From positions 12,403-76,402 of the forward strand of contig CAZTBM010000005.1 in assembly GCA_964611985.1 (NCBI GenBank): DNA of 64,000 nucleotides, written 5' to 3'. The notes beneath the pieces are model-generated. The model saw only the letters and a list, made by a program, of their open reading frames with translations, did not search any database and was not told where the DNA came from. This DNA is from an uncultured Desulfurococcales archaeon. Lineage in GTDB: Archaea > Thermoproteota > Thermoprotei_A > CAZTBM01 > SZUA-1508. Made by a program: the position numbers and the translations under genes. Below are positions 5,284-59,936 of this stretch, piece after piece (within the stretch, counting starts at the first letter, position 1; the number at the start of each line of letters is the position of its first letter).

Positions 5284-6144
5284 TTAAGGATAAACACCGT
5301 ATGTTTCAATAATGTTATCAATGTTTATTCTTTCCAGGTACTCTCTACTAACAATTTTTTGATTTAGAAGTTCCAGTTCGTGTTCCACCATAACCCAAGG
5401 GTAAATTACTACTCCCGGCCTTCTAGGGTCATCTAAATGATCACTTTCAACCATGAATACTGGTGGTATCATGTCAAGTTTAGTTAGTACGCTAAAAGTT
5501 CCAGGAACCGTAGTACTGAACCCTAAATGTATAGCTTCTTCAAGCAATGTTGGATCGGTAACATGGTGTAGTATTATTTTTCTCCTATCCTTGAGTCCTA
5601 TCATTTTACATATCCTGTGGATATAGTTAGCTGTTACTATTCCTCCGTTCTCCATATGTAAATGTACTATGAAATCATAGTCTTTAGCTGCATCTAGGGC
5701 TTTCATTAAGAGCATTTCAGATACTGCAATCCGCTCAGGCGAAGTCTTGTAATGTTGTCTTCCAACTTCACCTATACCGTCAATTAAGCCCTCTTTACAC
5801 ATATCTATGAGTGCATCTAAGACTCTATCTAATAGGTTATAAGCTTCATCTAGTCTATAATTATATTTGTCAATTAATTTGTCTATATCAGCAGGATGAA
5901 CACCAGCAAAACACTTACATTTTATACCCAATTCCTTAGCAGTCTTACACTCTTTGATTATAATTCTTGCAGAAACCAAATAATGTTCATATGTAGGATC
6001 TAGCCCGTAATGCCACGGAGCAAGAGAGACTAAGGCCATAAACCAACCATTTACTTCTTTAAATTTAGGTACTATACTTCTTACACCTAGCCCCCTAACA
6101 GGATTGGTATGTGTATGCGCGTCTGAAAATAAAAGTTTAGTCAT
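5284..6144 (-). CDS. TatD-family metal-dependent hydrolase
   Basis: Motifs occur in TatD order: SDAHTHTNP (HxH), GIGEVGRQH, FIVHLHMEN, IILHHVTD and VESDHLDDP. Confidence 0.7.
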   Translation of the reverse strand: MTKLLFSDAHTHTNPVRGLGVRSIVPKFKEVNGWFMALVSLAPWHYGLDPTYEHYLVSARIIIKECKTAKELGIKCKCFAGVHPADIDKLIDKYNYRLDEAYNLLDRVLDALIDMCKEGLIDGIGEVGRQHYKTSPERIAVSEMLLMKALDAAKDYDFIVHLHMENGGIVTANYIHRICKMIGLKDRRKIILHHVTDPTLLEEAIHLGFSTTVPGTFSVLTKLDMIPPVFMVESDHLDDPRRPGVVIYPWVMVEHELELLNQKIVSREYLERINIDNIIETYGVYP

Positions 6145-6401: not shown

Positions 6402-8678
6402 ATGAAAGTAAATGCTAAGAAAATACTCTCAGTATTAATACTGTTAACGTTGGTACTAAGTGTAACAGTAAGCCTAAGCACAGCTATAGTGAAAGCTCAG
6501 AAACCTATTGTTGCTGTTTTTGCTAAAGGCCTTTTGGACCCCGATGCTGACCCTCTACTTAAGGCTATGAGAGGTAATATCACCGAGGTCGAGTGGAAAG
6601 TTTTCACGGACACTATAACCTTTGACGGCATTAAAGATGCTAAAATGCTCATATGGGTGCTTGTTGATACGGGGTTAAATGTAACAGATGAAGAACTAAA
6701 GGTAATCAAGGACTGGTTTAACCTCGGCGGTAGAACCCTATGGGTTTGTGGAGACAGTGATTATAAGGGTGGAGACTTTAAACGTATTCCACCAGCAAAC
6801 GCAATATTAGAGACTGTAGGCAGCGTTCTTAGAAATGAACATTGTGAGGCAGTAGACAGAGAGAGTAATATTGGTGGTAGACCATACAGAGTAGCCGCAA
6901 TAATTGACCCTGATCCTGAAGTAGACTTCTTAAAGGACGGTGTTGAGAAACCAGTACTATTCCATGGACCTGGAGCAGTGGTAGCCTACAAAGACGGTAA
7001 ATGGATAAAGTTAGAGAAAGAAAAAGTACCTAACGTATACAGAATTGCCTGGACCACTGAGAAAGGCGCCATAGCGGAATTCGTGAAACCACTACCTCAA
7101 ACACATGACATTGGTGAAGAAGGCAAGTTTGTATTGATGGCGGCAGAAGTATTCCCGAAGAAAGATAACCTCGTAATACTTAGTGCTGAAGCACCCTTTG
7201 ATCATTATCAGGGTATGTGGACACCAGAATACAAAGGAATAGCCCTTGATGGCCCAAGATTCATCAAGAACGTCATATTATGGGGTGTGGGATTACTAGG
7301 AGAGAGAATACCTAAGCCAAAGCCTTTAGTTGCAGTGTTCGCTAAAGGACTATTATCACCAACAGGTGATGCTCTACTTAACGCCATGATGGGTAATATC
7401 ACTAGCGTTAAGTGGAAAGTATTTACTGACACTATAACATTTAAGGACATAAAGGACGCTAAAATGTTAATAATGGTATTAGTTGATACAGGTCTGACCT
7501 ATACCGAGGATGAATTGAAAGCTATAAAGGAGTGGTTCGATCAAGGCGGTAGAACCCTATGGGTTTGTGGTGACTCAGACTATAAAGGCGGGGACTTCAA
7601 GAGAATACCACCAGCAAACTCAGTTCTAGAGACAGTCGGTAGTGTACTTAGAAACGAGCACTGTGAAGGTGTTGATAGAGAGAGTAATATTGGTGGTAGA
7701 CCATACAGAGTAGCCGCAATAATACAGCCAGACACTGAAGCATGGTTCCTAGCAATGGGTATTAAACGTCCAGTACTATTCCATGGACCCGGTGTTGTCG
7801 TAGCTTATAAGGATGGCAAATGGATTAAACTAGAGAAGGAGAGACCACCAAACGTCATTAGAATTGCCTGGACTACCGAGAAGGGTGCAATAGCAGAGTT
7901 TGTGAAACCACTACCAGAAGTGCATGATATAGGTGAGGAAGGAAAATTCGTATTAATGGCCGCCGAAATCATGCCAGAAAAGAAGAATATTGTAATACTT
8001 AGTGCTGAAGCACCCTTTGATCATTATCAGGGTATGTGGACACCAGAATACAAAGGAATACCTCTAAATGGACCTGAATTCGTTCAAAACATTATACTAT
8101 GGGGTGTAGGGTTACTAGGAGAAAGGATACCAACAGCAATAATACTAAAACAGGAAATAGCAAAATTACAAGCAAAAGAGGAAACCCTAAAGAAAGAGTT
8201 AGAGAAATTAACACATGACCTTAAGGCCAAAGAAGAAGAGGTAAAGAGCCTATCCGAGAAGCTCACAAAGGCCGAAGAAGAGATAAAGAACGTAAAGGCC
8301 GAGTTGGAGAAGACAAAGGGCGAATTAGCTAAGAGGACTAGTGAATTAGAAGCAAAAGCAGCTGAAGTCGAGAAGTTACGTTCAGAGCTAGATAAAGCTA
8401 AGAGCGAATTAAGTAAGAAAGCGGCTGAATTAGAGGCAGCTAAAGCAGAACTTGAGAAGACAAAGGCAGAACTCGAGAGCGTCAAGTCAGAGTTATCTTC
8501 AGTTAAATCAGAGCTTTCACAAGCTAAGAGTAGACTAGGTGACTATGAAAAGAAAGTCAAAAGCTTAGAGGAGGAAGTAGCCTCACTAAGCTCTCAAGTA
8601 CCATGGTACCTAACATTAGGCGTAATAATAGGCATCATCGTTGGAGTGCCTGTAGGAATCTTTATGAAGAAGAAATAA
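6402..8678 (+). CDS. cell-surface protein: signal peptide, two tandem ~273-aa alpha/beta domains, ~150-aa coiled-coil stalk, C-terminal TM anchor
   Basis: Signal-like N-terminus ILSVLILLTLVLSVTVSLSTAIVKA, a duplicated domain (see repeat feature), heptad-rich KAELEKTK/SELxxxKSEL region and terminal WYLTLGVIIGIIVGVPVGIFMKKK. Confidence 0.75.
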   Translation: MKVNAKKILSVLILLTLVLSVTVSLSTAIVKAQKPIVAVFAKGLLDPDADPLLKAMRGNITEVEWKVFTDTITFDGIKDAKMLIWVLVDTGLNVTDEELKVIKDWFNLGGRTLWVCGDSDYKGGDFKRIPPANAILETVGSVLRNEHCEAVDRESNIGGRPYRVAAIIDPDPEVDFLKDGVEKPVLFHGPGAVVAYKDGKWIKLEKEKVPNVYRIAWTTEKGAIAEFVKPLPQTHDIGEEGKFVLMAAEVFPKKDNLVILSAEAPFDHYQGMWTPEYKGIALDGPRFIKNVILWGVGLLGERIPKPKPLVAVFAKGLLSPTGDALLNAMMGNITSVKWKVFTDTITFKDIKDAKMLIMVLVDTGLTYTEDELKAIKEWFDQGGRTLWVCGDSDYKGGDFKRIPPANSVLETVGSVLRNEHCEGVDRESNIGGRPYRVAAIIQPDTEAWFLAMGIKRPVLFHGPGVVVAYKDGKWIKLEKERPPNVIRIAWTTEKGAIAEFVKPLPEVHDIGEEGKFVLMAAEIMPEKKNIVILSAEAPFDHYQGMWTPEYKGIPLNGPEFVQNIILWGVGLLGERIPTAIILKQEIAKLQAKEETLKKELEKLTHDLKAKEEEVKSLSEKLTKAEEEIKNVKAELEKTKGELAKRTSELEAKAAEVEKLRSELDKAKSELSKKAAELEAAKAELEKTKAELESVKSELSSVKSELSQAKSRLGDYEKKVKSLEEEVASLSSQVPWYLTLGVIIGIIVGVPVGIFMKKK
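6495..8132 (+). repeat. intragenic tandem duplication, 2 x 819 bp
   Basis: Unit 1 spans about 6495-7313 and unit 2 about 7314-8132. A 69-nt block is identical between them (7173-7241 = 7992-8060), and further long identical runs are offset by exactly 819 nt (for example near 6858 and 7678). Confidence 0.9.
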
Positions 8679-9198: not shown

Positions 9199-9354
9199 CT
9201 AACTTTTTACCGTTATTGTTTTAATTGGCCTCCTAGTTATATGTTTACTCTTTTTCAATACTAATTTATAGCCACAAACGTAACATACGAATTTTCCATT
9301 AATCAGCTTTAGCGGGTTTTGGCAGACAGGACATATAAAATATGTATAGTTCAT
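9199..9354 (-). CDS. small 4-Cys zinc-ribbon protein, Rpo12/RpoP (Rpb12)-like
   Basis: 51-aa ORF below the track cutoff: MNYTYFICPVCQNPLKLINGKFVCYVCGYKLVLKKSKHITRRPIKTITVKS. CxxC...CxxCGYK[IL] followed by a basic tail matches the RNA polymerase subunit P pattern. Confidence 0.5.
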   Translation of the reverse strand: MNYTYFICPVCQNPLKLINGKFVCYVCGYKLVLKKSKHITRRPIKTITVKS

Positions 9355-9469: not shown

Positions 9470-10903
9470 TTACACCGATAATAGTGTTGTATGTGAGCTG
9501 TAGACTACAAAGGGCCCTGCTATATAATTATGGTATAAGGGAACGTAGAAGTCGTAGAGAGGACCATTATGCTCCTCCACTCTAATAGCAATGACTGGGT
9601 CCCACCTGAATGATAATAGATACAAGGCTTCGGTGAGTATTTCCCTTACTGATGTTAAGCTATAATATTTCGTGTATTTTTTATGTATTATCTTCTTTAA
9701 TTCATCCCTGGAGATAACGTAATATCCATTGATATATGATATTTTAGCTTCAGCCTCTATTAGCCCCTTGACACTGTTAGTTAAAGGTATGATATCGTCG
9801 AGGTCTCTTTTAGGAGACACTTGAACATCATAGTATATGTATTTGCCTATAGTGTTCAAAAAGTTCTTAATGTTTGTCTCTCCACGTATTCTTAGCTTTA
9901 CTTGTCCTGTCTCTTTATCCCTAGTTACATAGGGATATATACCCAGTCTTAACATTAATAGTTGGAGCTTATATGCAAGGTCGATATTGTTTAATGTTAG
10001 CTCTATGGAATCATTATTTACTCTTCCATTAGCATCATATATTCCGGAGATAAATGCTGCTATAACTGATGTTGGGCTTCGGGCTATAGCCTCAAGTATA
10101 ATACTATAGTGGTCTATTATGTGTTTAATTAGTATGTTGCCATACCTGCTAAGCCCTATAATCCATAAACGACTACTTTTATGTCTATAGACCTTACTCT
10201 TTATTTTGAACAGTCTTCTAATGTTACTAGCGTATCCCTTTGCAACATCCTTATTTCTACATAATATCTTTATTTCATCATCAATTAGTGTATGACTAAA
10301 CTTTATATAGGCGAGTGTTTGAGCTAGGTCTTCATTTAAAACACTTATGGTTTCTACATGCTTACTGTCACCATAGTGTTCGATAGCCTCTTCTACTCTC
10401 CTACGTTTTTTCCTCTTAAAAAGTAATGAGACAATAATTCTCAATTTGCTTTTTCTTTCACTTTCGTAAACTCTTTCAGGGAACCCGCCATCAAAGCTGT
10501 AATCATATGCACCAAGTGATACCGATACATGAGAAAGCGGAAATCCTATGTATTTTTTACTTCTAACATTTATTTTAAAGGGTACTGCTAGGAAATCACC
10601 TGTTTTTATTTGGTCAGCTCTCATAACCTTCAGTGAATTATCACTTAAAACTAATAATCTATGGTTTCGGGAGACTCTTATTTCACTATGCAACGTTCTT
10701 ATCGCTACAACTCTACTAGCTAATACCATAATTTTCTTGGTCGTTACAGGTGTAGGTGAGATGTATGAGAAATCGTAGGCAAGTAAATGTACATTTACAT
10801 CCTTAGCCTTTATTATACTACCATCAGGCAACATCATGTAAGTGTCTGGATGTACTCCGCTCTTGATATGCTCCCCTACTACACTATATGGTTGTCTAAG
10901 CAA
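9470..10903 (-). CDS. free-standing intein-like protein (Hint domain + LAGLIDADG endonuclease), splicing residues degenerate
   Basis: Intein blocks PDTYMMLPDGSIIKAKDV, VSRNHRLLVL, FISGIYDANGRV and LYDFYVPLYHNYIAGPFVVYSS. TTG start with an in-frame stop 7 codons upstream. There is no host gene. Confidence 0.75.
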   Translation of the reverse strand: MLRQPYSVVGEHIKSGVHPDTYMMLPDGSIIKAKDVNVHLLAYDFSYISPTPVTTKKIMVLASRVVAIRTLHSEIRVSRNHRLLVLSDNSLKVMRADQIKTGDFLAVPFKINVRSKKYIGFPLSHVSVSLGAYDYSFDGGFPERVYESERKSKLRIIVSLLFKRKKRRRVEEAIEHYGDSKHVETISVLNEDLAQTLAYIKFSHTLIDDEIKILCRNKDVAKGYASNIRRLFKIKSKVYRHKSSRLWIIGLSRYGNILIKHIIDHYSIILEAIARSPTSVIAAFISGIYDANGRVNNDSIELTLNNIDLAYKLQLLMLRLGIYPYVTRDKETGQVKLRIRGETNIKNFLNTIGKYIYYDVQVSPKRDLDDIIPLTNSVKGLIEAEAKISYINGYYVISRDELKKIIHKKYTKYYSLTSVREILTEALYLLSFRWDPVIAIRVEEHNGPLYDFYVPLYHNYIAGPFVVYSSHTTLLSV

Positions 10904-11101
10904 TAGCGATCCCTTAGAAAGCTTTTAAGCTATCCTCTCCTGTAATTCTTCATTTACTCAAGAAAGGTTTTTAAGAAAACAGGCTAAGTAATATCTCCTA
11001 GCTAAATTTCGGTTTACTTCTACTTATCGAGAAATCAGCACAAGAGGAATAATGAAATTGTAAGAGAGGAGAGAAATTACGGTTAAGAAATTTCTACAAA
11101 T

Positions 11102-11656
11102 TTACTTTCTTAAGCAACCTAAGTCGTCAAGTTTTTTATAGATCTTCCTTACAGCATCATATATCTCTTCTTCTCTCTTTGCTCCTGTGACAACCATTTT
11201 GCCAGAACTAAATATTAGTAAGACGACTTGTGGGTCATCCATTCGGTAAATTAGACCTGGGAACTGTTCAGGCTCGTACATTGAGTTTTCCAGCAAGAAA
11301 GCAGCCTTTTCAAGATTTACCTCTACGCCTAAATTAGCTGATGCAACAATGTTTTGTATTTGGACTTTCGGCCTACCAGTAATGATCATGTCATGTTTCC
11401 TTAAAATTTTGATTATCTTCTTAACAGCCTTAATTAGCTCATCAGTACTTTTTGCACCTGTTACAACCATCTTACCTGACTTGAAGATTAAAGCCGTAAC
11501 CTTGGGTTTGTCAAGTCTAAAGACCAATCCCGGAAATTGCTCAGGATTATATTCTACCCCTGGTATACTTCTCTCTATGGCATAAAGGTCAAGAGTTTGA
11601 TCAAGTGTCACTGTTGAAACTATATTCTCCACTTTTGCCGATAATCTCGGAGGCAT
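11102..11656 (-). CDS. tbp: TATA-box binding protein
   Basis: Two TBP repeats: NIVSTVTL...FPGLVFRL...[16 protein letters not shown] and NIVASANL...FPGLIYRM...[16 protein letters not shown]. Confidence 0.95.
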
Positions 11657-55574: not shown

Positions 55575-58500
55575 ATGATTGCATCTTTCAAGAAGAAGTC
55601 TGCATCAGAGAAGGTGATTCGCAAGGGTATAAAACTTATTTCGTTAGGAATTACTAGTAGGCTCCGCAAAGTTGTTGAGGAAGGGGAGAAGCTATCCTCA
55701 TATAACATTGGTATATCAAGAGTTGATATTTATGAATATGAAGGTCGAGGATACTACATTATAAATGAGCCTTCATTAACGCAAGAAGAGATCAGTGCTT
55801 ACTACAGGATCATGGATGAATTGTATTTCTCACTTAAACCAATAGTAGAAGTCGACCCCTCTAAGGTTATTGATGAAGTATTTAAAGTTATAGGTAAAGT
55901 CTACAAGAATATCGATATAAACAAAATAAAATACTATGTTATTAGAGATACTTTAGGTTATGGTCCATTAGACGTAGTAATGAACGATCCTAAAATAGAG
56001 GACATTAGTGGTGAAGGGGTTAATAGGCCTATAAGAGTTTTCCATAGAGACTTCTCATACTTAGACTGGTTAATAACAAATATAATATTTGAAACTGAAG
56101 AGGACGCAGATAGAATAGCTTTACTACTTGCACATAAAGCTAGAAGACACGTATCAACAGCATTCCCCATAGCTGAAGGAACGCTTCCAGAGAAACACAG
56201 AATAGTCATAACATATGGTTTTGAGGTAACACCATTTGGCTCAGGATTTACGGTTAGAAAGTTTAGAGAAGAACCGTTATCAATAGCTCATCTAATAAAG
56301 TTTGGAACCATATCACCCCTAATGGCAGCATACTGGTGGATAATATTTGAAAACAAAGGCTCAGCCTTCATAGTCGGTGAAATGGCGTCAGGGAAGTCCG
56401 TTCATCCAAAGAGCGTTATTATGGCTCTTATTGATGGAGTTCCTAGAATCTTAACTATAGAGGAATTATGGAATCTAGTACAGGAAAAAGTAAAAACGAT
56501 AAATAAAGTTAATGAGATGGAATACATTGATTTAGAAGGCCTTGATATCAAGGTACTAGCACTTAATGGTCTTAATATTAGCTGGTATAAACCACGGTAT
56601 ATAATAAGACATAAAGCACCAGAAAAACTAGTCAAGATAAAACTCTATAGTGGTAGAAAGATTATCGTTACCGAAGATCACTCCCTATTAGCATTTAAGC
56701 CTAATGGGTCAATAGAGGTTATAAAGCCACAGAATCTAAGTAAAGAAATGTACTTGTTAGGAATAAAGAGACTAAGACTACCTACAATAGATAAACATCT
56801 ACTATTACAAGAAATCATAGAGTCATTAGGAAAACAAGGACTAATGTTCAAAATCAAAGGCTTAAAAAAGAAAATAGCATATCGTGAAATTTTAAAGATA
56901 CTAAATAGTGATGCAGTTAAAATATCAGACATTTATGTGACAAGTATAAATACAAAAACCCAGGTTCCATTAGAAGCATTATTCAAGCCTGAATTTGGCT
57001 ATCTACTAGGCCTATTCGTATCTAAAGGGTATGATGATGGACAAGAAGTTCACTTATATATAGAATTCCAAAGTAAGGAATTAAAAAGTAAGTTAGAGAA
57101 TATAACTAATTCACTTAAGTTAAAATATAATGAATATAAGTTAAAGACTTGCCTTAGAGTAAGTTTTCCACCAGTTATCTCCAAGGTAATAAGAGCATTT
57201 AACTGTGGTAAAAAAGCCTGTAATAAACGGATACCAAGTATAGCTTGGATCATGGATTATAAGTGGATTATACACTTAATTGCAGGAATAATAGATGGGG
57301 ATGGTTATGTATCTGAAAGGGGAATAGAGGTAACAATCTCTAGTGAAAACTTAGCTTATGACATGATGTACGCATTTACAATACTAGGGATATATCCCAC
57401 TCTAAGGGTAAAAGTCAACAATGAGACTAAGAAAAAGTATCATACCATATATGTTTCAACATACTGGATTGACGAGCTTAAAGAACTTTTACATATACTA
57501 TTAACAACGAAAAGATCTAAATTACTAAAGGGAGTGAAAGAAAGAGCAATATTCCACTCTGAAATAGACATAATTCCCAAGGAAAGCCTTTACGTATTGT
57601 CGAAGAAGGCACCAAGAGAAATACAAATGTGTCTTCGTGGTTTATACTATTCAAATGAAAATGCTAGTAGAAAGAATTTAATGAAATACTACAATATATT
57701 ACCTAAAGAAATTAAAGAGCTTGTTAATTCAGACTTGATATTTGAGAAGATAAAAGAAATAGAGATTGTAGAAAACGATAACAAGTATGTTTATGACATT
57801 GAGGTTCCAGGAATAGAGAATTTTGAGGTAAATACAATATTTGTACATAACACAACTTTGATGAACGCTCTATTATCACTATTACCTCCTAATGCTAAGA
57901 TAGTTACAATAGAGGATACACCTGAGTTAAGACTACCACATATTGGTTGGAAGCCTCTTGTAGCAAGACATACGTATACTCTAACAGGTAGTAAGGTTAC
58001 TGAAGTATCACTTTTTGATCTAGTAAAGTTAGCTCTAAGAGAAAGAGCAACAGTCATAGCCATAGGAGAGATTAGAGGAGAAGAAGCATACGTATTCATC
58101 CAAGCCATAGCCAGCGGCCACGGGGGTGTTTGTTTAAAACACGGTGAACCCATAATCATAAAGGAGAATGGAATAGTAAGAATAGTACCTATAGGAAAAT
58201 TGGTAGATAATATATTAAGTAATGGAAAGAAAATAGGAGATATTAAAGTTTTAACTTTTAATCCAATGAAAGGTTTAGAATGGAAGCATTTAAAGAGAGT
58301 GTATAGAGTAGAGGGTTTGAAAACTTGGGTTAAAATAAAAACAGTAGAAGGTAGAATATGTGAAGTCACCAGTGATCATATAATACCAGTTGTTGAAAAT
58401 AATAAAGTAAAGTTTAAGAAAGCAATAGAAATACGCAAAGGAGATACTATACTCTTAGCATCTAAGTTGCCTATGGAACCTAAGTACAATACATTAAACG

Positions 58501-59936
58501 CTATTGAATGTTTAGAGGAGGACGAAGACAAACTATACGTTGATGGAAGAACCACTATTAAGGAATTAGTTAAAGCATATGGTATAAGAAATGTAGCTAA
58601 ACTGCTTAGAGTGCCCGAACATTCTATTAAGGATTGGGCTATTAGATCCTATATGCCATATATTATCTATAAGAAGTTAAAAGACGCCAACAATAAGGTA
58701 ATGGTTAAATATGGTGCAAAGGGTAGAAATGCCATCCCATCAATCTTAGAATTAAATAGAGACTTAGGTTTTATTATAGGGTTATATCTTGCTGAGGGAA
58801 CAGTAAGTGGAGTTAAAGTAGTTTATAATCTAGGTAAAGACGAAGAAAAGCTAGCTAAAAGAGTTAAAGAAAATTTGGAAAGGATATTTAGCTTAAAGCC
58901 TAAAATTAAAAGGGATAAATCAGCAATAATAGTCTATGTTAATTCTAAGATACTTGCTAAGTTATTTAAGAAGCTATTTGGAAGTAGAGCAGAAGATAAA
59001 GATATACCAGATTTCCTCCTTAACACACCTAAGGGCTTTAGAGCTGGTATAATAGAGGGATATTGGCTTGGTGACGGCCACATAAGAAGACATGGTTCTA
59101 AAACATACATGGCAGTAGCTGAAACGGCCTCAAAGAGCTTAGCATACAAAGTACATTACCTCTTAAAAACGCTGGAAATAGATAGTTCTGTAAGAAGCAT
59201 AAAGAGGACAAGTACAAATAAGCTTTATAAAAGACCTCATTATATAATAAGGATACATGGTGGGAAGAGCTTAAGCAACTTTATCAGTATATTTGATTTA
59301 GAAAAACCTAGAACAGGCTTGACTAAAGCCGAGCTACTATCTGGGAGTAAAACTAAACCCCCTGATACTCTCTTAGATGTTGTAACCGAAGCCGAGATAT
59401 ACTCATCTACTGATCCTGCATATGATATTGAGATCGAAGGAAACCATACATTCGTTCATGGATGTTCTATGATAACACATAACTGCACATTTCATGGTGA
59501 TTCTCTTGAAAGTATGGTTATGAGGTTAACAACACCACCAATAAATGTTCCAATATCGTTCCTTCCACTCGTTAGCAACGTGATTATAACGAGGTATATT
59601 AGAATACCTGGTGAGAAGCCTATGAGGAGAGTTGTAAAGGTATATGAGATAACAGGGTTAAAGAGTGCTAGTGAACTAGAGTATAAAGTCATTTTCGAAT
59701 GGAACATTTTAGAAGATAAACACTATCCGGACACTCCAGAGGAGGTTGTTAAAAAGAGCGAGAAACTTCAACGAGTAGCAATGCTCTTAGGATGGACGGA
59801 GGATCTTCTTCTAGAAGAGTTAGAGCGTAGAAGAAAATTACTCGAGAAGCTAGTTGAAGAGAATAAACTATCATATAATGAAGTCACCTTAGCAATTCAA
59901 AATTATTATAAGGAGGTTTGGAAGCCATTGCAATAA
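55575..59936 (+). CDS. FlaI/ArlI-VirB11-type type II/IV secretion (pilus assembly) ATPase carrying two inteins
   Basis: Exteins (517 aa) assemble to IVGEMASGK|TTLMNALL (Walker A), ATVIAIGEIRGEEA (Walker B) and IASGHGGV|CTFHGDS (His box). The gene lies between pilin-like and FlaJ-like genes. Confidence 0.9.
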   Translation: MIASFKKKSASEKVIRKGIKLISLGITSRLRKVVEEGEKLSSYNIGISRVDIYEYEGRGYYIINEPSLTQEEISAYYRIMDELYFSLKPIVEVDPSKVIDEVFKVIGKVYKNIDINKIKYYVIRDTLGYGPLDVVMNDPKIEDISGEGVNRPIRVFHRDFSYLDWLITNIIFETEEDADRIALLLAHKARRHVSTAFPIAEGTLPEKHRIVITYGFEVTPFGSGFTVRKFREEPLSIAHLIKFGTISPLMAAYWWIIFENKGSAFIVGEMASGKSVHPKSVIMALIDGVPRILTIEELWNLVQEKVKTINKVNEMEYIDLEGLDIKVLALNGLNISWYKPRYIIRHKAPEKLVKIKLYSGRKIIVTEDHSLLAFKPNGSIEVIKPQNLSKEMYLLGIKRLRLPTIDKHLLLQEIIESLGKQGLMFKIKGLKKKIAYREILKILNSDAVKISDIYVTSINTKTQVPLEALFKPEFGYLLGLFVSKGYDDGQEVHLYIEFQSKELKSKLENITNSLKLKYNEYKLKTCLRVSFPPVISKVIRAFNCGKKACNKRIPSIAWIMDYKWIIHLIAGIIDGDGYVSERGIEVTISSENLAYDMMYAFTILGIYPTLRVKVNNETKKKYHTIYVSTYWIDELKELLHILLTTKRSKLLKGVKERAIFHSEIDIIPKESLYVLSKKAPREIQMCLRGLYYSNENASRKNLMKYYNILPKEIKELVNSDLIFEKIKEIEIVENDNKYVYDIEVPGIENFEVNTIFVHNTTLMNALLSLLPPNAKIVTIEDTPELRLPHIGWKPLVARHTYTLTGSKVTEVSLFDLVKLALRERATVIAIGEIRGEEAYVFIQAIASGHGGVCLKHGEPIIIKENGIVRIVPIGKLVDNILSNGKKIGDIKVLTFNPMKGLEWKHLKRVYRVEGLKTWVKIKTVEGRICEVTSDHIIPVVENNKVKFKKAIEIRKGDTILLASKLPMEPKYNTLNAIECLEEDEDKLYVDGRTTIKELVKAYGIRNVAKLLRVPEHSIKDWAIRSYMPYIIYKKLKDANNKVMVKYGAKGRNAIPSILELNRDLGFIIGLYLAEGTVSGVKVVYNLGKDEEKLAKRVKENLERIFSLKPKIKRDKSAIIVYVNSKILAKLFKKLFGSRAEDKDIPDFLLNTPKGFRAGIIEGYWLGDGHIRRHGSKTYMAVAETASKSLAYKVHYLLKTLEIDSSVRSIKRTSTNKLYKRPHYIIRIHGGKSLSNFISIFDLEKPRTGLTKAELLSGSKTKPPDTLLDVVTEAEIYSSTDPAYDIEIEGNHTFVHGCSMITHNCTFHGDSLESMVMRLTTPPINVPISFLPLVSNVIITRYIRIPGEKPMRRVVKVYEITGLKSASELEYKVIFEWNILEDKHYPDTPEEVVKKSEKLQRVAMLLGWTEDLLLEELERRRKLLEKLVEENKLSYNEVTLAIQNYYKEVWKPLQ
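56397..57851 (+). mobile_element. intein 1 (485 aa, Ser1, LAGLIDADG) inserted in the Walker A P-loop
   Basis: It starts SVHPKSVIMALIDG right after GK and ends NTIFVHN, followed by Thr+1. Endonuclease motifs LLGLFVSKGYDDG and LIAGIIDGDGYV. Confidence 0.85.
58131..59483 (+). mobile_element. intein 2 (451 aa, Cys1, LAGLIDADG) inserted in the His-box region
   Basis: It starts CLKHGEPIII and ends CSMITHN, followed by Cys+1. Endonuclease motifs IIGLYLAEGTV and IIEGYWLGDGHI. Confidence 0.85.

What the first reader, a model, noticed from the sequence alone, without database searches (positions are those of the whole stretch)
9470..10903. Free-standing, splicing-dead intein ORF that keeps vestigial extein codons resembling the P-loop site of the pilus ATPase 45 kb away
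The 477-aa ORF has full intein architecture: block A-like PDTYMMLPDGSIIKAKDV, block B-like VSRNHRLLVL, LAGLIDADG-like FISGIYDANGRV, and block F/G-like LYDFYVPLYHNYIAGPFVVYSS. It sits in no host gene. An in-frame stop lies 7 codons upstream of its TTG start, and it terminates 6-7 codons after the intein end. Its flanks look like relics of the site occupied by intein 1 of the ATPase at 55575-59936. At the N junction, VVGEHIKSG-VHPDTYMMLPDG compares with IVGEMASGKS-VHPKSVIMALIDG. At the C junction, VVYSSH-TTLLSV(stop) compares with IFVHN-TTLMNALLSL. The nucleophile position appears to be Gly and the terminal His-Asn is lost, so splicing should be impossible, yet the long frame is intact. A TATA-like TTAAAA lies about 22 nt upstream of the start. 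This suggests either near-complete deletion of a paralogous secretion ATPase around its intein, or domestication of an intein as a stand-alone endonuclease or DNA-binding protein.
Basis: partly seen in the sequence, partly recalled or inferred. Interest (0 to 1): 0.7.

Follow-up and report, generated by a model that had tools for sequence, protein, structure and literature searches.

The report
Intein that outlived its host gene
This archaeal gene is a complete intein that has lost its splicing and DNA-cutting residues and the dCTP deaminase gene it once interrupted, yet is still kept intact by natural selection, so a selfish element has probably become a host protein of unknown role.

Summary
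The 477-aa ORF at 9470-10903 (minus strand) is real and stands alone. It has the full intein architecture: a HINT splicing domain plus a LAGLIDADG domain. The position-1 nucleophile, the terminal His-Asn and both LAGLIDADG catalytic acids are replaced.

It is not a decaying relic. Orthologues at 72% and 60% identity have the same length, TTG start, stop position and gene neighbours. Synonymous sites are saturated (pS about 0.7-0.8) while pN is 0.16-0.24, and only 0.03-0.05 in the C-terminal HINT lobe.

The proposed link to the pilus ATPase 45 kb away fails. The ATPase's two inteins score lowest of 16 inteins tested against the family profile (about 18 bits). Flank resemblance of that size also occurs with unrelated hosts.

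The closest inteins among 1.84 billion proteins sit in dCTP deaminase (Dcd). In the nearest genomes that lack this ORF, an intein-less dcd occupies exactly this slot between TBP and a small zinc-ribbon gene. The ORF is therefore the in-place remnant of an intein-bearing dcd whose exteins are gone.

The function is unknown. My best guess is a non-catalytic, basic binding protein, but that step is inferred. I rate it a new variant of a known kind, comparable to yeast HO and bacterial WhiA.

The parts
9470..10903 (-). Whole free-standing intein-derived gene: 477 codons plus stop, TTG start.
   Evidence: ORF list and translation. Pfam Intein_splicing and LAGLIDADG_3. Orthologues of 477-478 aa at 99, 72 and 60% identity.
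10859..10903 (-). Codons 1-15 (MLRQPYSVVGEHIKS), the N-terminal relic before the intein position-1 residue. It aligns without gaps to the last 15 residues of the Dcd N-extein (NLRSTYARLGLMIPP), with 5 of 15 identical.
   Evidence: MSA and codon view. The codons are translated: residues are conserved while third positions change. The origin cannot be decided from these residues alone.
10559..10858 (-). HINT N-lobe, residues 16-115. Gly16 sits at the Cys1 position. Block A is VHPDTYMMLPDG. Block B is SRNH, with Ser78 and His81 kept.
   Evidence: MSA with 14 inteins. 69% of positions are invariant across the family.
10346..10558 (-). Variable basic linker, residues 116-186, including KRKKRRR. Poorly conserved and modelled with low confidence.
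   Evidence: pN 0.37-0.48. 17% invariant. pLDDT below 50.
9809..10345 (-). Monomeric LAGLIDADG domain, residues 187-365. Both catalytic acid positions are replaced: Ser203 in motif 1, and Asn292 in motif 2 (Thr in the orthologues).
   Evidence: Residue-by-residue alignment to the TliVMA and PhoVMA inteins and the MSA. AF2 pLDDT 70-90 in this domain. Foldseek match to I-DmoI with TM 0.66, and to WhiA.
9494..9808 (-). Residues 366-470: helical connector plus the HINT C-lobe with blocks F and G (LYDFYVPLYHNYIAGPFVVYS). Asp451 and His458 are kept. The terminal His-Asn is replaced by Tyr468-Ser469. This is the most conserved part of the protein.
   Evidence: MSA. pN 0.03-0.05 against pS 0.69-0.87. 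Residues 417-470 are 91% invariant.
9470..9493 (-). C-terminal tail HTTLLSV plus the stop codon. HTTLLS is invariant in all orthologues.
10967..10994 (-). Conserved upstream element ATATTACTTAGCCT-(6 nt)-TTAAAAAC, a candidate TATA box or promoter, 64-91 nt before the TTG.
   Evidence: Three-lineage alignment of the upstream regions. The motif is not enriched elsewhere in the window. Its function is inferred.
10909..10915 (-). Conserved purine-rich AAGGGAT, 5 nt before the TTG start. A candidate ribosome-binding site.
   Evidence: Conserved as AAGGGRT in the window, L001 and L005. Its function is inferred.
11102..11656 (-). TBP gene, the upstream synteny anchor. In relatives, dcd follows it directly.
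   Evidence: Pfam TBP 4.8e-69. Synteny in L001, L009 and L010.
9199..9354 (-). 51-aa zinc-ribbon gene, the downstream synteny anchor. Its homologue follows dcd in L009.
   Evidence: tblastn hits in L001, L005, L009 and L011.

Best explanation
The ORF is the in-place remnant of an intein-bearing dCTP deaminase gene (dcd) that once lay directly downstream of TBP.

Proposed history:
- The intein sat at the Dcd site ...ARLG(L/I)xIPP|T(I/V)(I/V)DAGFEG.
- Its homing endonuclease was probably already inactive.
- In the common ancestor of a small group of low-GC Desulfurococcales, the Dcd exteins were lost. Only about 15 codons remain before the intein and 7-8 after it.
- The junction residues needed for splicing were replaced.
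- The intein body gained or kept its own promoter, ribosome-binding site and TTG start. It has since been inherited vertically under purifying selection.

It is therefore an exapted intein, dead for splicing and dead as a nuclease.

Shown: the architecture, the residue replacements, the orthology, the synteny, the selection, and the closest relatives.

Inferred: the present function. My best guess is a non-catalytic, basic (pI about 9.7) binding protein. It would use the extremely conserved HINT lobe, the LAGLIDADG core and the C-terminal half of the saddle to bind nucleic acid and/or a protein partner. This would be analogous to nuclease-dead WhiA.

The confidence of 0.6 is for the whole statement. 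I put the origin and exaptation part at about 0.75-0.8, and the specific binding-protein function at about 0.35.
For: Origin:
- An exhaustive profile search of 1.84 billion representative proteins found only the family's own cluster below 1e-30. The best outside hits are Dcd inteins: P0006 8e-24, P0007 3.5e-20 and P0013 1.5e-17.
- Against trimmed inteins, the family profile gives Dcd 98, 86 and 75 bits. The window ATPase inteins give about 18 bits.
- In the MSA, the family shares features with Dcd inteins that the other 11 inteins lack. These are FRWD before block F, AGPF in place of ANG, a GKY motif with a 12-column deletion, no HTH-like insert, and non-acidic residues at both LAGLIDADG catalytic positions.
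- Synteny: in L009 the order is DUF5658, TBP, intein-less dcd (171 aa), zinc-ribbon. In the window it is DUF5658-like, TBP, ORF, zinc-ribbon. L010 has TBP followed by dcd, and shares Metallophos...TBP...UDG-SpoIIM with L001.

Selection:
- Three lineages keep the same length, TTG start and stop.
- pS is 0.68-0.78 (saturated) against pN 0.16-0.24. HINT-C pN is 0.03-0.05.
- The uncorrected pN/pS of 0.285 lies within the range of neighbouring genes, 0.02-0.35.

Dead chemistry:
- Gly16 sits at Cys1, Tyr468-Ser469 at His-Asn, and Ser203 and Asn/Thr292 at the LAGLIDADG acids.
- WhiA lacks the same acids and does not cut DNA (PMC3384342).

Fold:
- Foldseek top hits are the TliVMA, PI-PfuI and PI-TkoII inteins, I-DmoI and WhiA.
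- pI is 9.6-9.8.
Against: - No Dcd extein remnant is detectable in the flanking DNA. The dcd origin therefore rests on synteny plus intein homology, not on residual extein sequence.
- Overall identity to Dcd inteins is only 23-25%, barely above other inteins at 18-24%.
- TBP-dcd adjacency was seen in 2 of 4 related genomes examined; L011 and L013 lack it.
- The one intein-bearing dcd locus I could read (L012) has no TBP within 5 kb.
- For the function: the first three strand pairs of the LAGLIDADG saddle are only 25-33% invariant. That fits poorly with a strictly sequence-specific DNA binder using the classic saddle.
- There are no expression data.
- The HINT part of the structure model is low-confidence.
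Confidence: 0.6

Rival explanations
1. One reading: the ORF is what remains of a paralogous type IV pilus, archaellum or secretion ATPase that was deleted around a P-loop intein. That intein would be related to intein 1 of the ATPase at 55575-59936.
For: The strings VVGE...SG and TTL are shared with IVGEMASGK|...|TTLMNALL. By residue shuffling, the combined flank score of 35 has p about 0.003 for the window and 0.012-0.024 for the orthologues.
Against: - The site ranks 4th of 113 junctions, behind aIF5B, and is not significant after correcting for the number of sites compared.
- The ATPase inteins are the least similar of 16 inteins to the family profile, at 17.6-17.7 bits. BLASTP finds only the generic LAGLIDADG motif.
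- VHP/LHP at intein positions 2-4 is common to many unrelated inteins.
- It would need deletion of about 270 upstream codons plus a new promoter.
- The syntenic slot holds dcd.
Confidence: 0.03
2. The ORF derives from the 5' end of an intein-containing aIF5B (infB) gene. That gene's P-loop lies only 15-30 residues from the natural N-terminus, so the whole N-extein would be retained and only the C-extein lost.
For: - Best flank score of all 113 junctions: window MLRQPYSVVGEHIKSG...TTLLS against aIF5B LRQPVVVVLGHVDSGK|...|T(S/T)LLD. That is 9 of 15 identical without gaps, shuffle p about 0.00015.
- Aeropyrum and Pyrococcus aIF5B read (L/I)RQPI(V/I)..LGHVDHGKTTLLD.
- The NCBIfam best hit for the ORF is the intein-containing IF-2 model.
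- The length of the N-extein fits.
Against: - LRQP occurs only in the window lineage. The orthologues read FKRG and FKQL, and their scores drop to 16-17, which is not significant.
- aIF5B inteins score 42-68 bits, below Dcd inteins.
- Genuine infB in Desulfurococcales sits between S6e/aIF2-gamma and NDK, not near TBP.
- It needs a 2-residue deletion at the N junction and a 2-residue insertion at the C junction.
Confidence: 0.07
3. The ORF is a non-functional pseudogene-like leftover that merely has not decayed yet.
For: The splicing and nuclease residues are lost. A free-standing inactive intein with short exteins has been described as a pseudogene, the Arthrobacter Arth_1007 intein (PMC3196547).
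Against: - Three lineages with saturated synonymous divergence keep an uninterrupted 477-478-codon frame, the same start and stop, and a conserved promoter/ribosome-binding-site region. Protein identity is 60-72%.
- pN/pS is similar to neighbouring real genes.
- HINT-C is 91% invariant.
Confidence: 0.04
4. The ORF is still a selfish, active free-standing homing endonuclease, as in the yeast WHO elements that sit next to their target gene. It would cut intein-less dcd or a site near TBP.
For: It sits directly downstream of a conserved gene, as WHO genes sit next to FBA1. The full LAGLIDADG fold is retained.
Against: - Both metal-binding acid positions are non-acidic in all family members. Loss of these residues abolishes cleavage in LAGLIDADG proteins (PMC3384342).
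- Inheritance looks vertical with fixed synteny, and there is one copy per locus. No clusters of copies or pseudogene copies were seen.
- The family is confined to four 90%-identity clusters in 5.8 billion proteins.
Confidence: 0.06

Closest known systems
dCTP deaminase (Dcd) inteins of archaea, e.g. P0006, P0007 and P0013 (site ...ARLGxxIPP|C...THN|T(I/V)(I/V)DAGFEG)
   Same: They are the closest homologues in an exhaustive search. They share the motifs FRWD, AGPF and GKY, the same deletions, and non-acidic residues at both LAGLIDADG catalytic positions. The window ORF lies at the genomic position that dcd holds in relatives.
   Different: Dcd inteins keep Cys1, the terminal His-Asn, a +1 Thr and full Dcd exteins (about 110 plus 60 aa). 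The window ORF has Gly16, Tyr-Ser, and no exteins beyond 15 plus 7-8 residues. Identity is only 23-25%.
Yeast HO endonuclease and WHO elements (domesticated or unorthodox intein-derived genes; eLife 2020, read as bioRxiv 10.1101/2020.01.20.913210)
   Same: They are free-standing genes derived from a full intein (HINT plus LAGLIDADG), no longer embedded in a host protein and not splicing. HO is maintained by selection for a host function.
   Different: HO and WHO proteins are active endonucleases and carry a C-terminal zinc-finger domain. They are eukaryotic. The window protein lacks the catalytic acids, has no added domain, and is archaeal.
WhiA/DUF199 (bacterial transcription factor derived from a LAGLIDADG homing endonuclease)
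   Same: It has the monomeric LAGLIDADG fold with both catalytic acids lost, and is kept as a non-nuclease host protein. WhiA appears among the Foldseek hits.
   Different: [quoted passage not shown] It is ancient and universal in Gram-positive bacteria. The window family is tiny and its most conserved part is the HINT lobe.
Arthrobacter sp. FB24 Arth_1007 intein (PMC3196547)
   Same: It is an intein-like ORF with very short flanks (66 aa in total), lacks catalytic residues, and does not splice.
   Different: Arth_1007 was judged an inactive pseudogene, with no evidence of conservation. The window ORF has conserved orthologues under purifying selection.
Archaeal intein homing endonucleases with solved structures (TliVMA 7qss, PhoVMA 7qst, PI-PfuI 1dq3, PI-TkoII 2cw7)
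   Same: They give the best sequence matches (phmmer 1e-8 to 1e-6) and the best structural matches (Foldseek 2.5e-15 to 3e-10). They have the same two-domain layout.
   Different: They are embedded in host proteins and keep their splice-junction residues.

Membership tests
Intein (protein-splicing element) | HINT fold with blocks A, B, F and G | tested here: met
   Pfam Intein_splicing 5e-13. The blocks align with 14 inteins. Foldseek top hits are inteins.
Intein (protein-splicing element) | Nucleophile (Cys, Ser or Thr) at position 1, or the class 2/3 substitutes (+1 Cys attack, or the block F Cys of the WCT triplet) | tested here: not met
   Gly16 sits at position 1 in all orthologues. Block F position 4 is Asp451, not Cys. 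There is no Cys in the C-terminal lobe.
Intein (protein-splicing element) | C-terminal Asn (or Gln/Asp), normally preceded by His | tested here: not met
   Tyr468-Ser469 align with His-Asn. The alternative register gives His471-Thr472. Neither register has Asn, Gln or Asp.
Intein (protein-splicing element) | Embedded in frame within a host protein (exteins on both sides) | tested here: not met
   A stop lies 7 codons before the start and stops follow codon 477. No extein-like sequence is detectable in the flanks.
Intein (protein-splicing element) | Splicing or cleavage activity | not testable with these tools
   Needs expression and mass analysis of the protein.
LAGLIDADG homing endonuclease | [quoted passage not shown] | tested here: met
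   Pfam LAGLIDADG_3 2.2e-13. AF2 pLDDT 70-90 in residues 190-445. I-DmoI TM 0.66 normalised to the target.
LAGLIDADG homing endonuclease | An acidic metal-binding residue at the end of each LAGLIDADG motif | tested here: not met
   Ser203, and Asn292 (Thr in the orthologues), align with the Asp/Glu of the TliVMA intein and of 10 other inteins.
LAGLIDADG homing endonuclease | Site-specific DNA cleavage | not testable with these tools
   Needs a biochemical assay.
Dcd-site intein lineage | Closest homology to inteins inserted at the Dcd IPP|T site | tested here: met
   Ranks 1, 2 and 8 of 1.84 billion representatives. Profile scores of 98, 86 and 75 bits. Shared indels and motifs.
Dcd-site intein lineage | Located in the dcd gene or locus | tested here: inconclusive
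   The Dcd exteins are absent. However, the ORF occupies the slot between TBP and the zinc-ribbon gene that intein-less dcd occupies in L009, and that dcd occupies after TBP in L010.
   17.6 bits, the lowest of 16 inteins. BLASTP finds only an 18/44 LAGLIDADG-motif match. The flank score ranks 4th of 113.
HO/WHO-type domesticated intein | Intein-derived, free-standing, plus a C-terminal zinc-finger domain and a retained nuclease active site | tested here: not met
   No extra domain is found (Pfam). The catalytic acids are absent.
WhiA/DUF199 | Nuclease-dead LAGLIDADG domain fused to a C-terminal HTH, and no HINT domain | tested here: not met
   A HINT domain is present and no HTH is detected. 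The resemblance is structural only.

The most novel reading that the evidence does not exclude
The intein gained a host-beneficial function that does not depend on splicing or DNA cutting, possibly while it still sat inside dcd. That function then kept the intein alive after its host gene was lost. The catalytically dead HINT splice-site lobe is as conserved as TBP itself (91% invariant, pN 0.03). It may have been repurposed as a binding module for a conserved cellular partner, for example a component of the basal transcription machinery encoded next door, or for a new chemistry involving the invariant Ser/Thr-rich tail YSSHTTLLS. If so, this would be the first prokaryotic example of a whole intein turned into a host protein.
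Probability: 0.3. Interest if true: 0.8.

Novelty: new variant of a known kind. Interest (0 to 1): 0.62.

Why it matters
Inteins are usually seen as selfish passengers that survive only because removing them imprecisely would kill an essential host protein. Here the reverse seems to have happened. The host gene (dcd) is gone, and the intein remains under purifying selection with both of its known activities disabled.

That is direct comparative evidence that an intein-derived protein can be useful to a prokaryotic cell in its own right. It bears on the long-running question of whether inteins are purely parasitic, and it gives a concrete protein to test.

The case also carries a methodological warning. 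Relic 'extein' matches of 5-15 residues pointed convincingly to two wrong hosts, the pilus ATPase and aIF5B. Only synteny and exhaustive homology searching identified dcd.

Tried and rejected
- ATPase kinship: BLASTP, the MSA, identity by region and profile scoring all place the two ATPase inteins as the most distant. Rejected.
- aIF5B origin: I pursued this seriously after flank scoring put aIF5B first. I then searched Aeropyrum aIF5B homologues and read two infB loci. I rejected it as the main explanation because LRQP is specific to the window lineage, infB synteny differs, and aIF5B inteins are more distant than Dcd inteins.
- Extein remnants: tblastn with relaxed settings, DNA local alignment with shuffling, and three-frame Smith-Waterman of the flanks against Dcd from L009, L010, P0007 and P0013 gave nothing above background. 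No dcd, infB or radA extein was found elsewhere in the 64-kb window.
- Wider family members: the genome-contig scan found only the known SZUA-1508 MAG. The exhaustive representative search found no further cluster.
- TBP next to an intein-bearing dcd: the only readable locus (L012, from the metagenome scan) has no TBP within 5 kb.
- Regulon search: the conserved upstream motif ATATTACTTAGYCT is not enriched in the window, with 4 matches against 4.1 expected.
- Structure: the first AF2 run on 5 sequences was unusable, pLDDT 40. The second, on 8 sequences, gave pLDDT 58. It is confident only for the LAGLIDADG domain, so I draw no conclusions about HINT geometry.
- A local hhalign run timed out and was replaced by hmmsearch.
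- Literature: searches for stand-alone, extein-less or domesticated prokaryotic inteins found nothing relevant.
Full report
**1. What is in the sequence**

The minus strand carries a 477-codon ORF at 9470-10903 with a TTG start. An in-frame stop lies seven codons upstream, and three stop codons follow codon 477.

Pfam finds an intein splicing domain split across residues 59-466 (5e-13). It also finds a LAGLIDADG_3 domain at residues 280-353 (2.2e-13). phmmer against PDB sequences hits the Pyrococcus and Thermococcus VMA inteins at 1e-8 to 1e-6.

An AlphaFold model built on eight sequences is confident only in the LAGLIDADG domain. Its best Foldseek matches are the TliVMA, PI-PfuI and PI-TkoII inteins, then I-DmoI (TM 0.66 normalised to the target), then WhiA.

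The window holds no other inteins except the two inside the ATPase at 55575-59936.

**2. Catalytic residues**

I aligned the ORF and two orthologues with 14 inteins from seven host proteins. I also used the residue-level alignment to the TliVMA intein. The findings are:
- Gly16 occupies the Cys1 position.
- Block B keeps Ser78 and His81.
- Block F keeps Asp451 and His458.
- The terminal His-Asn is replaced by Tyr468-Ser469. In an alternative register with a 3-residue insertion, it is replaced by His471-Thr472.
- The two metal-binding acids of the LAGLIDADG motifs are Ser203 and Asn292. The latter is Thr in the orthologues.

No class 2 or class 3 substitute nucleophile is present. By the established requirements of protein splicing, this protein should not splice. 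By the established requirements of LAGLIDADG catalysis, summarised for I-DmoI and WhiA in PMC3384342, it should not cut DNA. This is inference from sequence and has not been tested.

**3. It is a conserved, selected gene**

The 5.8-billion-protein search found four clusters: 99%, 72%, 72% and 60% identity, all 477-494 aa. Together they hold nine distinct sequences.

The 60% orthologue comes from a Desulfurococcales MAG. It lies in the same order: HTH regulator, DUF5658-like, TBP, ORF, zinc-ribbon, 123-aa protein.

All three lineages start at the same TTG. A conserved AAGGGRT lies 5 nt upstream, and ATATTACTTAGYCT...TTAAAAAC lies 64-91 nt upstream.

Synonymous sites are saturated (pS 0.68-0.78) while pN is 0.16-0.24. 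The uncorrected pN/pS of 0.285 lies within the range of neighbouring genes:

| Gene | pN/pS (window vs L001) |
|---|---|
| TBP | 0.02 |
| 123-aa protein | 0.16 |
| HTH regulator | 0.24 |
| This ORF | 0.285 |
| Zinc-ribbon | 0.35 |

Constraint is uneven along the protein:

| Region | Invariant positions |
|---|---|
| HINT C-lobe (417-470) | 91% (pN 0.03-0.05) |
| C-terminal tail | 86% |
| LAGLIDADG helices | 73-85% |
| HINT N-lobe | 69% |
| Last saddle hairpin | 69% |
| First three saddle hairpins | 25-33% |
| Linker (109-186) | 17% |

Synonymous differences are abundant inside the HINT-C region. The constraint is therefore on the protein, not on the DNA or RNA. The relic codons 1-15 are translated: amino acids are kept while third positions change. 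A decaying pseudogene is excluded.

**4. The ATPase link fails**

BLASTP between the ORF and the ATPase aligns only the generic LAGLIDADG motif with intein 1 (18/44 residues). With intein 2 it gives 21% identity over 328 residues.

A profile of the ORF family scores the two ATPase inteins at 17.6 and 17.7 bits, the lowest of 16 inteins tested.

I scored the 15-residue N-relic and the 7-residue tail against 113 intein junctions taken from the hit list. The ATPase site ranks 4th (score 35). It falls behind three aIF5B junctions (38-44) and sits close to Dcd and RadA junctions (30-33).

VHP or LHP at intein positions 2-4 is common to Dcd, DHH, beta-CASP and other inteins.

**5. A second misleading flank match**

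The window's MLRQPYSVVGEHIKSG...TTLLS matches the aIF5B P-loop junction, LRQPVVVVLGHVDSGK|intein|T(S/T)LLD. Nine of 15 residues are identical without gaps, with shuffle p about 1.5e-4. aIF5B naturally has a very short N-extein.

However:
- The orthologues read FKRG and FKQL in place of LRQP, and their scores are not significant.
- aIF5B inteins are more distant than Dcd inteins.
- Genuine infB in Desulfurococcales sits between S6e/aIF2-gamma and NDK, not near TBP.

I treat this match as coincidence. I leave it a small residual probability.

**6. What it came from**

Two independent lines of evidence converge on dCTP deaminase.

(a) Homology.
- An exhaustive HMMER search of 1.84 billion representative proteins finds no relative below 1e-30 other than the family itself.
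- The best outside hits are inteins in Dcd: P0006 8e-24, P0007 3.5e-20 and P0013 1.5e-17. Their junction is ...ARLGxxIPP|CLHP...AGPFITHN|T(I/V)(I/V)DAGFEG, and Pfam finds DCD on the exteins.
- The family and the Dcd inteins share features absent from the other inteins aligned. These are FRWD before block F, AGPF, a GKY motif with a 12-column deletion, no HTH-like insert, and non-acidic residues at both LAGLIDADG catalytic positions.
- The last feature suggests the nuclease was already dead while the intein still sat in dcd.

(b) Synteny.
- I took the nearest TBP homologues outside the family (84% identity) and read their loci.
- In L009 (GCA_029258925.1) the order is Metallophos, DUF5658, TBP, intein-less dcd (171 aa, empty site IPP|T), then a homologue of the window's zinc-ribbon gene.
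- In L010 the order is Metallophos, TBP, dcd ... UDG, SpoIIM. This matches the flanks of the 60% orthologue's locus.
- The ORF therefore occupies exactly the slot that dcd occupies in relatives, bracketed by the same genes.

The 15 N-terminal residues align without gaps to the last 15 residues of the Dcd N-extein. Five are identical in the window, and Tyr6, Gly10 and Ile13 are invariant in the family. In one register the tail HT|TLLSV resembles HN|TI(I/V)DA. Section 5 shows that such short matches prove little on their own.

Caveats:
- No further extein remnant is detectable.
- Identity to Dcd inteins is only 23-25%.
- Two other related loci lack dcd after TBP.
- The single intein-bearing dcd locus I could read is not next to TBP.

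**7. How it most likely works**

Shown: this is a vertically inherited, selected, basic (pI 9.6-9.8) two-domain protein. It lacks the residues needed for both ancestral activities.

Inferred: it acts as a non-catalytic binding protein. Precedents are WhiA, a nuclease-dead LAGLIDADG transcription factor, and HO, a domesticated intein whose HINT part is retained.

The conservation pattern points to the HINT lobe, the LAGLIDADG core and the C-terminal half of the saddle as the functional surface. It does not point to the whole classical DNA-binding saddle. A protein partner, or a mixed protein and nucleic-acid interface, is therefore as plausible as sequence-specific DNA binding.

I found no enrichment of the conserved upstream motif elsewhere in the window.

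The most puzzling observation remains unexplained. The dead splice-site lobe and the tail YSSHTTLLS are conserved almost as strongly as TBP.

**8. Novelty**

NCBI annotates the orthologue as a hypothetical protein. Searches of the held literature found no stand-alone or domesticated intein described in prokaryotes. The nearest described cases are:
- HO/WHO in yeasts, which are active nucleases with an added zinc finger;
- WhiA, which has no HINT domain;
- the Arthrobacter Arth_1007 intein, judged a pseudogene.

I classify this as a new variant of a known kind. It is an exapted intein that outlived its host gene, in Archaea, with both activities lost.

**9. Verdict**

- Observation: largely confirmed.
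- ATPase interpretation: rejected.
- Domestication: supported.
- Origin: reassigned to dcd.
- Interest: 0.62. The case is a clean, testable example bearing on whether inteins can be useful to their hosts. It is limited by a tiny phylogenetic range and an unknown function.

Noticed in passing
window 55575-59936 (+): A 1453-aa FlaI/BasE-like secretion ATPase carries two full-size inteins. NCBIfam matches FlaI at 5.5e-91 and bindosome BasE at 1e-75. Intein 1 (residues 275-759) begins with Ser and splits the Walker A motif as GEMASGK|S...HN|TTLMNALL. Intein 2 (residues 853-1303) sits at GHGGV|C...HN|CTFHG. Both keep the canonical junction residues.
   Followed up: partly
window 6402-8678 (+): A 758-aa secreted or anchored protein has an internal duplication of about 270 aa (residues about 35-305 and 315-585), followed by a long Lys/Glu-rich coiled coil and a C-terminal transmembrane helix. 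It is not found at the corresponding place in L001.
   Followed up: no
window 10967-10994 (-); L001 about 5905-5935; L005 about 190-220; L009 about 5470-5490: The conserved intergenic motif (T)AATATTACTTAGYCT...TTAAAAAC lies upstream of the intein-derived gene in all three lineages. A similar AATATTACTTATGG lies upstream of the zinc-ribbon gene in L009, and ATATTACCCC(G/C)AG lies upstream of the zinc-ribbon gene in both the window and L009. The gene's promoter may have been borrowed or duplicated from its neighbour.
   Followed up: partly
It is nevertheless conserved next to TBP/dcd in L001, L005, L009 and L011.
   Followed up: partly
L009 4859, L010 4889, L012 5001: The dcd genes of three related lineages all start with TTG (TTG ATA CT...). 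The intein-derived ORF also uses TTG, but at a different codon of the ancestral gene.
   Followed up: no
window 10835-10903 (-); protein P0397: One database gene call for a 99%-identical copy is 454 aa long. It starts at the ATG of codon 24 instead of the TTG. The 60% orthologue has Ile-Ile at that place, so the ATG cannot be the shared start.
   Followed up: yes
P0006, P0007 and P0013 (Dcd inteins); L012 5001-6962: All three Dcd-intein representatives keep a full-size LAGLIDADG domain although both catalytic acid positions are non-acidic. That nuclease-dead domains persist in splicing-competent inteins may hint at a function that predates the loss of dcd.
   Followed up: partly
window 11102-11656 vs L001 5217-5771: TBP is 98% identical at the protein level between lineages whose synonymous sites are saturated (pS 0.73). 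This gives a useful internal scale for how strong the 91% invariance of the HINT C-lobe is.
   Followed up: yes
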